A DNA stretch of 64,000 nt from a virus: positions 15,558 to 79,557 of IMG/VR virus record IMGVR_UViG_3300034140_000002; one strand, given 5' to 3'. Shown piece after piece: positions 51,915-53,833 of this stretch. Each line of letters starts with the position of its first letter. The stretch's first letter is position 1. The notes beneath the pieces were generated by a model. The model made no database searches. It worked only from the letters and a program-made list of their open reading frames with translations, and had not been told where the DNA came from. The translations under genes were made by a program, and so were the position numbers.

Positions 51915-52290
51915 TCCAATATGCTTTCTTAAAACAACAATAGGCAGAGTGCCTTGTAGCACCCCGCCGAAAATTGTGCGTATCTAGCACGCTTCCTTCC
52001 GATACGCTTAGCGCCCAGTTGACGCTCTCTCCACAGTTCCAATCGCTTGCAATCTGAACCCGCAAGGGATTATGGAATTCTTAAATAGGGTGATAGCTTA
52101 CCTATCAGCACTCCCTTGCTTTCTCAAAGGGCAGACTAACGTGCTTCCGACTTTAACGGCTGACTAATTTCCTGCCTCGCTAATGACAGTGCAGTGGTCT
52201 CTTGGTAGCGATACTCAAGATTCTTTAACGCGAGGTGCAGTCTGAACGGCTTACACGTCCTCACTGGCAATCTATCCTGCAATTGGCGTT
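51915..52290 (-). ncRNA. Candidate ~370 nt structured non-coding RNA
   Basis: No credible ORF; at least eight hairpins readable by eye; co-oriented with and adjacent to tRNA cluster. Confidence 0.5.
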
Positions 52291-52865: not shown

Positions 52866-52941
<76 letters not shown>

Positions 52942-52957
52942 TAAATCTACAAAACAC

Positions 52958-53049
52958 TTTCGGAGTGACCTGTATTACGGTTCAGAACCTACAGGATTGT
53001 AGCCACGACAGCTACGCGAGTATTGTCCTCGCAAGCACCCACTCCGAAA
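52958..53049 (-). ncRNA. Candidate 92 nt four-way-junction RNA between tRNA-Leu and tRNA-Thr
   Basis: 10 bp closing stem plus three perfect internal stems. Confidence 0.55.
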
Positions 53050-53055
53050 ATATTC

Positions 53056-53146
53056 TGGTACGAGAGGTGGGAATTGAACCCACGATGTCTCTTAAGTGTG
53101 TCAGATTTTAAGTCTGATGCGTTTCAACCAGCTTCGCCACTCTCGC
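53056..53146 (-). tRNA. tRNA-Leu(TAA)
   Basis: TCAGA-CTTAAAA-TCTGA, long variable arm, encoded CCA. Confidence 0.92.
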
Positions 53147-53804: not shown

Positions 53805-53833
53805 ATCATATCATAAGAGTGCGAATTTGTCAA
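53805..53833 (-). promoter_or_regulatory. sigma70 promoter for tRNA/terminase operon
   Basis: Minus strand TTGACA-AATTCGCACTCTTATGA-TATGAT. Confidence 0.8.

What the first reader, a model, noticed from the sequence alone, without database searches (positions are those of the whole stretch)
52958..53049. 92 nt four-way junction with complementary loops between two tRNAs
Seen: TTTCGGAGTG/CACTCCGAAA closes three stems: GCGAG-GACAATA-CTCGC, GTAGC-TGTCGTG-GCTAC and CCTGTA...TACAGG with inner GGTTC/GAACC. The loops carry GACA and TGTC, able to form a 4 bp kissing contact. It is tRNA-sized but has no T-loop, anticodon arm or CCA. Inference: an independent small RNA released by tRNA processing (decoy for anticodon nucleases, ribozyme or aptamer). 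The two hairpins abut directly, so the kiss may be sterically difficult.
Basis: partly seen in the sequence, partly recalled or inferred. Interest (0 to 1): 0.65.

Follow-up and report, generated by a model that had tools for sequence, protein, structure and literature searches.

The report
Stem-closed cloverleaf RNA between phage tRNAs
A 104-base stretch between two transfer-RNA genes of an uncultured phage folds into a very stable, roughly tRNA-shaped RNA that cannot decode; it has the size and shape of two small RNAs of unknown function long annotated in phage T5, but no relative was found, so its role is untested.

Summary
The fold is real and larger than reported: 104 nt (53055-52952, minus strand). 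A 16-17-bp helix starting at the first base after the tRNA-Leu CCA closes three hairpins (z -6.2, the most stable unit tested in the operon). It lies in the tRNA/small-RNA operon of a complete 93.7-kb PAK_P1-related phage, where most other spacers are conserved RNA modules. No homologue turned up in Rfam, cultured phages, IMG/VR pattern scans or related loci, and a near-identical phage lacks it, so covariation cannot be tested. The GACA/UGUC kiss is chance-level (5-10%) and unlikely within one molecule. Ribozyme, retron and Y-RNA tests were negative. Closest known: T5 RNAIII and RNAIV (103-106 nt, same four-way shape, no sequence similarity). Best guess: an accessory tRNA-shaped spacer RNA freed by tRNA processing that decoys host tRNA-targeting factors (0.35). 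Main rival: an insulating processing clamp around a tRNA relic (0.3). This scan has reported similar stem-closed spacers in other phages.

The parts
52952..53055 (-). Whole structured unit, 104 nt, four-way junction
   Evidence: MFE -44.5, z -6.21, 0/400 shuffles; most pair probabilities >=0.9
53040..53055 (-). 5' arm of the 16-17-bp closing helix; begins at the first base after the tRNA-Leu CCA. Its junction-proximal 7 nt (53046-53040, CGGAGUG) equal the acceptor strand of one phage tRNA-Pro
   Evidence: acceptor likeness alone not significant (p 0.15)
53033..53039 (-). Single-stranded linker GGUGCUU (first G may pair with U52968)
53016..53032 (-). Hairpin 1, 5 bp, loop GACAAUA (D-arm position)
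52999..53015 (-). Hairpin 2, 5-6 bp, loop UGUCGUG, abutting hairpin 1 with no linker (anticodon-arm position; loop is not an anticodon loop, -11 bits)
52969..52995 (-). Hairpin 3: 6 bp, 4-nt bulge, 2-4 bp, apical UUCUGAA; carries GUAGG-UUC (52992-52985), like the 5' half of a T-arm
   Evidence: 11.5 bits on a tRNA T-arm profile, p 0.001 against a structure-keeping null; full T-loop fails
52952..52967 (-). 3' arm of the closing helix; no CCA; ends 10 nt before tRNA-Thr
53056..53146 (-). Upstream tRNA-Leu(UAA) with encoded CCA; closest cultured relative in Aeromonas phages (84-85%), which lack the element
52866..52941 (-). Downstream tRNA-Thr(UGU), the tRNA most often found at this place in the clade
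53805..53833 (-). Sigma70-like promoter (11/12) upstream of the 135-aa ORF and tRNA array; a weaker one at 53457-53428
   Evidence: consensus match only
51943..51968 (-). Terminator-like hairpin near the end of the array
   Evidence: consensus match only

Best explanation
An accessory, non-decoding small RNA of the T5 RNAIII/RNAIV kind. It is transcribed inside the phage tRNA operon (inferred from position). Host 3'-end processing of tRNA-Leu and RNase P cleavage before tRNA-Thr free it (inferred from general tRNA maturation). Its 16-17-bp terminal helix protects it from exonucleases (inferred). The closing helix stacks on hairpin 3 and hairpin 1 stacks on hairpin 2, giving a tRNA-like two-stack shape with a vestigial T-arm half (fold computed; stacking inferred). 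The most likely use of such a dispensable tRNA-shaped RNA is as a decoy or competitor for host tRNA-binding or tRNA-cleaving defence proteins (inferred, untested). In that stacking the two complementary loops point away from each other, so the kiss plays no intramolecular role.
For: Fold far beyond chance and stronger than the three tRNAs tested beside it (z -6.2 against -1.3, -3.2, +0.1). Sense strand of a promoter-terminator unit. Same size and four-way shape as T5 RNAIII (106 nt) and RNAIV (103 nt), annotated 'stable RNA with unknown functions'. tRNA-like arms: total p 5e-4 with generous registers, nearly all from the T-arm half; best match of the element's own model in 92 kb of unselected loci is a tRNA-Pro, arm for arm (21.1 bits, E 0.017). 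Neighbouring spacers are conserved modules, one with covarying pairs, so spacers here are usually under selection. Present in this phage and absent in a 98%-identical-ORF relative, as accessory counter-defence cargo would be. Phage tRNAs are known to counter tRNA-cleaving defences (PMC11464382, PMC11555353, abstracts/titles).
Against: No homologue, so no covariation and no conserved loops. No expression data. Local alignment to 228 tRNAs is no better than the null (107/300); without the T-arm half the tRNA likeness is p 0.08; the tRNA model RF00005 does not score it. The same GUAGGUUC occurs in T5 RNAIV in a non-T-arm position. Published counter-defence cases involve true tRNAs that resist cleavage, not decoys.
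Confidence: 0.35

Rival explanations
1. A cis-acting insulating or processing clamp around a functionless or relic insert (possibly a remodelled tRNA). The long helix keeps the insert from misfolding with its neighbours and shortens the effective Leu-Thr spacer to about 10 nt; the excised RNA does nothing by itself.
For: Helix starts at +1 after CCA and ends 10 nt before tRNA-Thr; relatives have 1-9-nt linkers before tRNA-Thr. Closing helices of >=12 bp occur in 8 of 64 phage tRNA spacers against 28 of 640 shuffles, around unrelated interiors. Flanking tRNA folds are left largely intact in the joint MFE.
Against: All three inner hairpins are perfect Watson-Crick helices (20 bp), more order than a decaying relic should keep. 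A clamp alone does not explain why the insert is kept when a short linker suffices in relatives.
Confidence: 0.3
2. An independent stable RNA with some other trans function (protein scaffold, antisense or sponge RNA in the manner of P1 C4 / P4 CI RNA, or a host-factor aptamer).
For: Four single-stranded segments displayed on a rigid junction; size like T5 RNAIII/IV.
Against: No two-part complementary target in the phage genome beyond four scattered 7-mer pairs, and no outside match longer than 11 nt. No Rfam family. Host unknown, so host targets were not tested.
Confidence: 0.17
3. The loops pair between molecules (GACA of one with UGUC of the next), giving head-to-tail dimers or rings as in phi29 pRNA or the ROOL/GOLLD cages.
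For: Flush stacking would put the two loops at opposite ends, which suits intermolecular pairing (inference). The array lies just upstream of the terminase. ROOL and GOLLD occur near phage tRNA islands and assemble through kissing loops (10.1101/2024.12.08.627333).
Against: Complementarity is chance-level (5-10%) and weak (-4.7 kcal/mol as free strands). The element is absent from a near-identical phage, so it cannot be an essential packaging RNA. No Rfam pRNA match.
Confidence: 0.06
4. A self-cleaving ribozyme that trims the tRNA-Leu 3' trailer (like theta ribozymes) or a riboswitch aptamer.
For: Starts immediately after a tRNA 3' end, the theta-ribozyme position (PMC10879173).
Against: No nested double pseudoknot even with a loose descriptor, no CUGANGA; no Rfam ribozyme or riboswitch at E<=10; the first base is locked in the closing helix; no expression platform follows.
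Confidence: 0.05
5. A miniature inverted-repeat DNA insertion or a chance fold.
For: Imperfect 16-bp terminal inverted repeat; patchy presence.
Against: Single copy in the complete genome; no target-site duplication visible; the helix irregularities are G-U on the transcribed strand (weak); four helices, z -6.2.
Confidence: 0.07

Closest known systems
Phage T5 RNAIII and RNAIV (GenBank AY543070 misc_RNA, 'stable RNA with unknown functions')
   Same: 103-106 nt, in a phage tRNA operon, closing helix from the first bases of the unit, three inner hairpins, no CCA, not in Rfam.
   Different: No sequence similarity (alignment p 0.42 and 0.15; model search of T5 empty); closing helix longer here; expression not shown here.
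Phage T4 rnaC and rnaD (species 1 and 2 RNAs)
   Same: Non-tRNA small RNAs in a phage tRNA cluster, function unknown (PMC9697503, PMC12685909).
   Different: 139 and 119 nt; rnaC ends in an intact T-arm next to an acceptor-like stem; this element has a broken T-loop and a long closing helix. No model match in T4.
tRNA (Rfam RF00005), nearest isotype tRNA-Pro
   Same: Four-way junction with arms in tRNA order; CGGAGUG/CACUCCG-A equals the acceptor and discriminator of one phage tRNA-Pro; GUAGG-UUC T-arm half.
   Different: 7-nt instead of 2-nt linker, no anticodon loop, T-loop lacks R57 and A58, T-arm lengthened and bulged, no CCA, acceptor extended by 9 bp; not scored by ARAGORN or RF00005.
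Bacterial and phage Y RNAs (YrlA; PMC4201824)
   Same: 80-130 nt, long terminal stem, tRNA-like features.
   Different: No Ro60 gene in the complete genome, no Rfam match, GNCGAAN(0-1)G motif absent from the 5' strand.
Theta (HDV-like) ribozymes (PMC10879173)
   Same: Directly 3' of a phage tRNA.
   Different: No double pseudoknot or J4/2 cytosine context.

Membership tests
T5 RNAIII/RNAIV-type spacer RNAs | About 100 nt, closed four-way junction inside a phage tRNA operon | tested here: met
T5 RNAIII/RNAIV-type spacer RNAs | Sequence homology to RNAIII or RNAIV | tested here: not met
T5 RNAIII/RNAIV-type spacer RNAs | Accumulates as a stable RNA in infected cells | not testable with these tools
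   no expression data; phage uncultured
tRNA | Recognised by ARAGORN or RF00005 | tested here: not met
tRNA | Anticodon loop (Y-U-NNN-R) on the middle arm | tested here: not met
   UGUCGUG scores -11.2 bits, real mean 5.7
tRNA | T-loop UUCRANY on a 5-bp stem | tested here: not met
   5' half 11.5 bits, full 12 nt -1.7 against real mean 12.8
tRNA | Common ancestry with a tRNA | tested here: inconclusive
   arm profile p 5e-4 and model hit to tRNA-Pro against local alignment 107/300
T4 rnaC/rnaD | Sequence or model similarity; intact 3' T-arm | tested here: not met
Y RNA | Ro60 (TROVE) gene nearby | tested here: not met
   none in complete genome; host copy not testable
HDV-like/theta ribozyme | Nested double pseudoknot with J4/2 cytosine | tested here: not met
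Hammerhead, twister, pistol, hatchet, twister-sister ribozymes; riboswitches | Rfam model match; CUGANGA core for hammerhead | tested here: not met
SRP Alu domain | UGU U-turn linker between the two kissing hairpins; Rfam SRP match | tested here: not met
   hairpins abut with no linker; no SRP hit; feature recalled from own knowledge
Retron msr-msd | Adjacent reverse transcriptase gene | tested here: not met
   no PF00078 in the genome
Kissing-loop RNAs (pRNA, ROOL, GOLLD) | Covarying loop-loop pairs | not testable with these tools
   no homologue found; complementarity chance-level

The most novel reading that the evidence does not exclude
A tRNA-derived RNA remodelled into a stable, non-decoding decoy that protects phage translation from tRNA-targeting immunity (possibly presenting the Gln-anticodon-like loop UUCUGAA, or multimerising through GACA/UGUC), which would give a first function to the T5 RNAIII/IV type of RNA.
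Probability: 0.15. Interest if true: 0.7.

Novelty: new member of a known kind. Interest (0 to 1): 0.3.

Why it matters
The small non-tRNA RNAs of phage tRNA operons (T4 rnaC/D, T5 RNA I-IV) have had no assigned function for decades. This element is another, unusually stable example, and its array holds several conserved uncatalogued modules that are swapped between close relatives. As a single orphan sequence in an uncultured phage it is a poor handle on that question; the conserved neighbours, and the T5 RNAs themselves, are better experimental targets.

Tried and rejected
Homologue searches, all negative: blastn of cultured phages, plasmids and E. coli genomes; five DNA-pattern scans of IMG/VR (0 hits; 53, 65, 71: 11, 31, 83 hits, none a homologue on folding); blastn and nhmmer over 193 loci; a single-sequence covariance model over 85 sources, 57 further whole records and smaller unfiltered sets; a two-kissing-hairpin descriptor over 118 tRNA spacers. 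A one-sequence model and exact patterns have low reach, so absence is not proven. Two hits resembling hairpin 3 (L249, L317) lie inside long ORFs and were rejected. A 14-nt likeness to a spacer in L016 was not supported by the model. Searches with the upstream-ORF alignment confirmed no loci. The contig of the closest capsid relative ends before the array. Retron, Ro60 and RtcB genes are absent. The tRNA-Pro hit was selected by the pattern itself and was excluded from the tRNA tests. The Fremin et al. viral RNA catalogue (PMC10690425) could not be checked: no supplement held. No paper on T5 RNAIII/IV was found in the library.

Full report
Context. The window is part of a complete 93,664-bp phage record with direct terminal repeats. 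Its terminase is 39% identical to those of PAK_P1-like Pseudomonas phages and 69-84% to uncultured IMG/VR phages. Between a 135-aa ORF (53851-53444) and an endonuclease plus terminase lies a minus-strand array of seven tRNAs (six found at default settings, tRNA-Trp at relaxed ones), with a sigma70-like promoter at 53833-53805 and a terminator-like hairpin at 51968-51943. The element fills the spacer between tRNA-Leu(UAA) and tRNA-Thr(UGU).

Observation. The helices are as described, on the tRNA-sense strand. The unit is larger than 92 nt: the closing helix extends to 16-17 bp, from the first base after the tRNA-Leu CCA (53055) to 52952. The 104-nt core has z -6.2 with 0 of 400 dinucleotide shuffles as stable, the strongest of all spacers and of the three tRNAs tested. 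Only 5 of 8138 sampled genome windows of 92 nt fold as well. The fold is therefore not chance. The kiss is another matter: four Watson-Crick pairs between two 7-nt loops arise in 5% of random pairs and 10% of shuffles of these loops, and the U of UGUC is paired within hairpin 2 in the MFE. Hairpins 1 and 2 abut with no linker, which by standard RNA geometry favours coaxial stacking with the loops at opposite ends (inference).

Relatives. I collected loci by terminase, by the upstream ORF and by DNA patterns and searched them by BLAST, nhmmer, a covariance model and a structural descriptor; nothing homologous appeared. Rfam has no family for it. Two contigs whose upstream ORF is 98% identical to this phage's have tRNA-Leu(UAG) followed directly by tRNA-Thr and lack the element, so it is accessory. 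Aeromonas phages with the closest tRNA-Leu(UAA) also lack it. In contrast most other spacers of the array have homologues in relatives, in shuffled order, and one shows 16 two-sided changes in a 5-bp stem across 7 sequences. The array is a mosaic of small RNA modules punctuated by tRNAs.

tRNA likeness. The arms lie in tRNA order. The seven junction-proximal pairs and the next base equal the acceptor and discriminator of a phage tRNA-Pro (a hit selected by the pattern). On a profile from 229 unselected tRNAs, the 5' strands of the arms score 15.6 bits (real mean 13.7, structure-keeping null -12.9). With generous register freedom for the null the total p is 5e-4, the T-arm half alone 0.001, the rest 0.08. 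The element's own model ranks a tRNA-Pro first in 92 kb. Against this, local alignment to tRNAs is at null level, the T-loop lacks R57 and A58, the middle loop is no anticodon loop, there is no CCA, and the same 8-mer occurs in T5 RNAIV outside any T-arm. It may be tRNA-derived; it is not a tRNA. The apical loop of hairpin 3, UUCUGAA, scores as a normal anticodon loop (Gln CUG, 5.1 bits), but it sits on a 2-bp stem and one such match in three loops is unremarkable.

Comparison with known RNAs. Following leads from earlier scan notes I fetched T5. Its annotated RNAIII (106 nt) and RNAIV (103 nt), 'stable RNA with unknown functions', fold into a closing helix with three hairpins, the same size and shape, without sequence similarity; Rfam does not hold them either. 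Long closing helices also wrap unrelated inserts in tRNA arrays of related phages and of Vibrio phage Thalassa (8 of 64 spacers >=12 bp against 28 of 640 shuffles). T4 rnaC/rnaD are the classic analogues (unknown function per PMC9697503 and PMC12685909). Theta and other small ribozymes, Y RNA, retron RNA and the SRP Alu domain each fail a defining test. No antisense target stands out in the phage genome.

Mechanism. Shown: sequence, computed fold, position, absence from relatives. Inferred: co-transcription, release by processing of the flanking tRNAs, stability through the terminal helix, tRNA-like stacking. Guessed: decoy for tRNA-targeting host factors (0.35), against an inert insert held in an insulating clamp (0.3), another trans function (0.17), intermolecular kissing (0.06), ribozyme or aptamer (0.05), mobile or chance element (0.07).

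Verdict. A real, orphan, stem-closed four-way-junction RNA of a kind already known from T5 and already reported several times by this scan in other phages. The highlighted kissing contact is unsupported. Interest 0.3.

Noticed in passing
window 52692-52595 (-); L013:3278, L015:1095, L016:3655, L077:4548, L083:3953, L191:4456: Conserved uncatalogued RNA module: 5-bp covarying stem with invariant GACG loop, invariant AAGUCUUCGGAG (GAC/GUC could form a 3-bp pseudoknot), variable middle, invariant CACGGAGC. 7 sequences, 16 two-sided changes, 0/500 shuffles; no match in cultured phages. A better candidate family than the finding itself.
   Followed up: partly
window 52223-52136 (-); L001:1409, L002:9708, L003:9018, L004:2661, L013:3811, L015:1513, L017:1101, L018:636, L020:1682, L022:1100, L190:2092; L206 (T4 rnaD); L322:4538: Widespread module opening with a stem whose loop region reads (U)CGCUACC; the same motif opens T4 rnaD and occurs in the PAK_P1-like PaGz-1 tRNA array. 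Possible rnaD-related family; not tested with a model.
   Followed up: partly
window 52509-52453 (-); L013:3507: 57-nt acceptor-like stem with a single hairpin ending in ACCA, 97% conserved in a relative.
   Followed up: partly
window 52064-51940 (-); L013, L015, L001, L003, L027, L094, L190, L191: Conserved GUGGAGAG module with covarying-looking hairpins; in the window, L013 and L015 it contains CGGAAGGAAGC, which from memory equals the helix-8 tip of E. coli 4.5S RNA; no Rfam SRP hit.
   Followed up: no
L001:1241, L002:8133, L022:526, L083:4198, L190:1651: Another conserved array module (GGCAAUAAAAC followed by short hairpins), absent from the window.
   Followed up: no
window 52369-52295 (-): tRNA-Trp(CCA) with an atypical D-arm, missed at default ARAGORN settings, 42 bits on RF00005, conserved in L013 and L015.
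   Followed up: partly
window 53346-53239, 52865-52769, 52447-52370, 52294-52224 (-): Further spacers: the first has an 83% homologue in L016, the second none found, the third a likely one in L190:1481 by eye, the fourth 97-100% in L013 and L015.
   Followed up: partly
L088:2927-3127, L101:4225-4435, L323:3359-3559: Spacers of about 200 nt closed by 17-23-bp helices; the L101 one holds an intact T-arm next to a CGGCUG/CAGCCG stem.
   Followed up: no
L010:10366-10608, L011:10608-10836: Group I introns inside the terminase genes of two relatives.
   Followed up: no
L077:3715-4196, L191:3587-4051: HNH-like ORFs inserted in the tRNA array just before tRNA-Leu(UAA) in two relatives.
   Followed up: no
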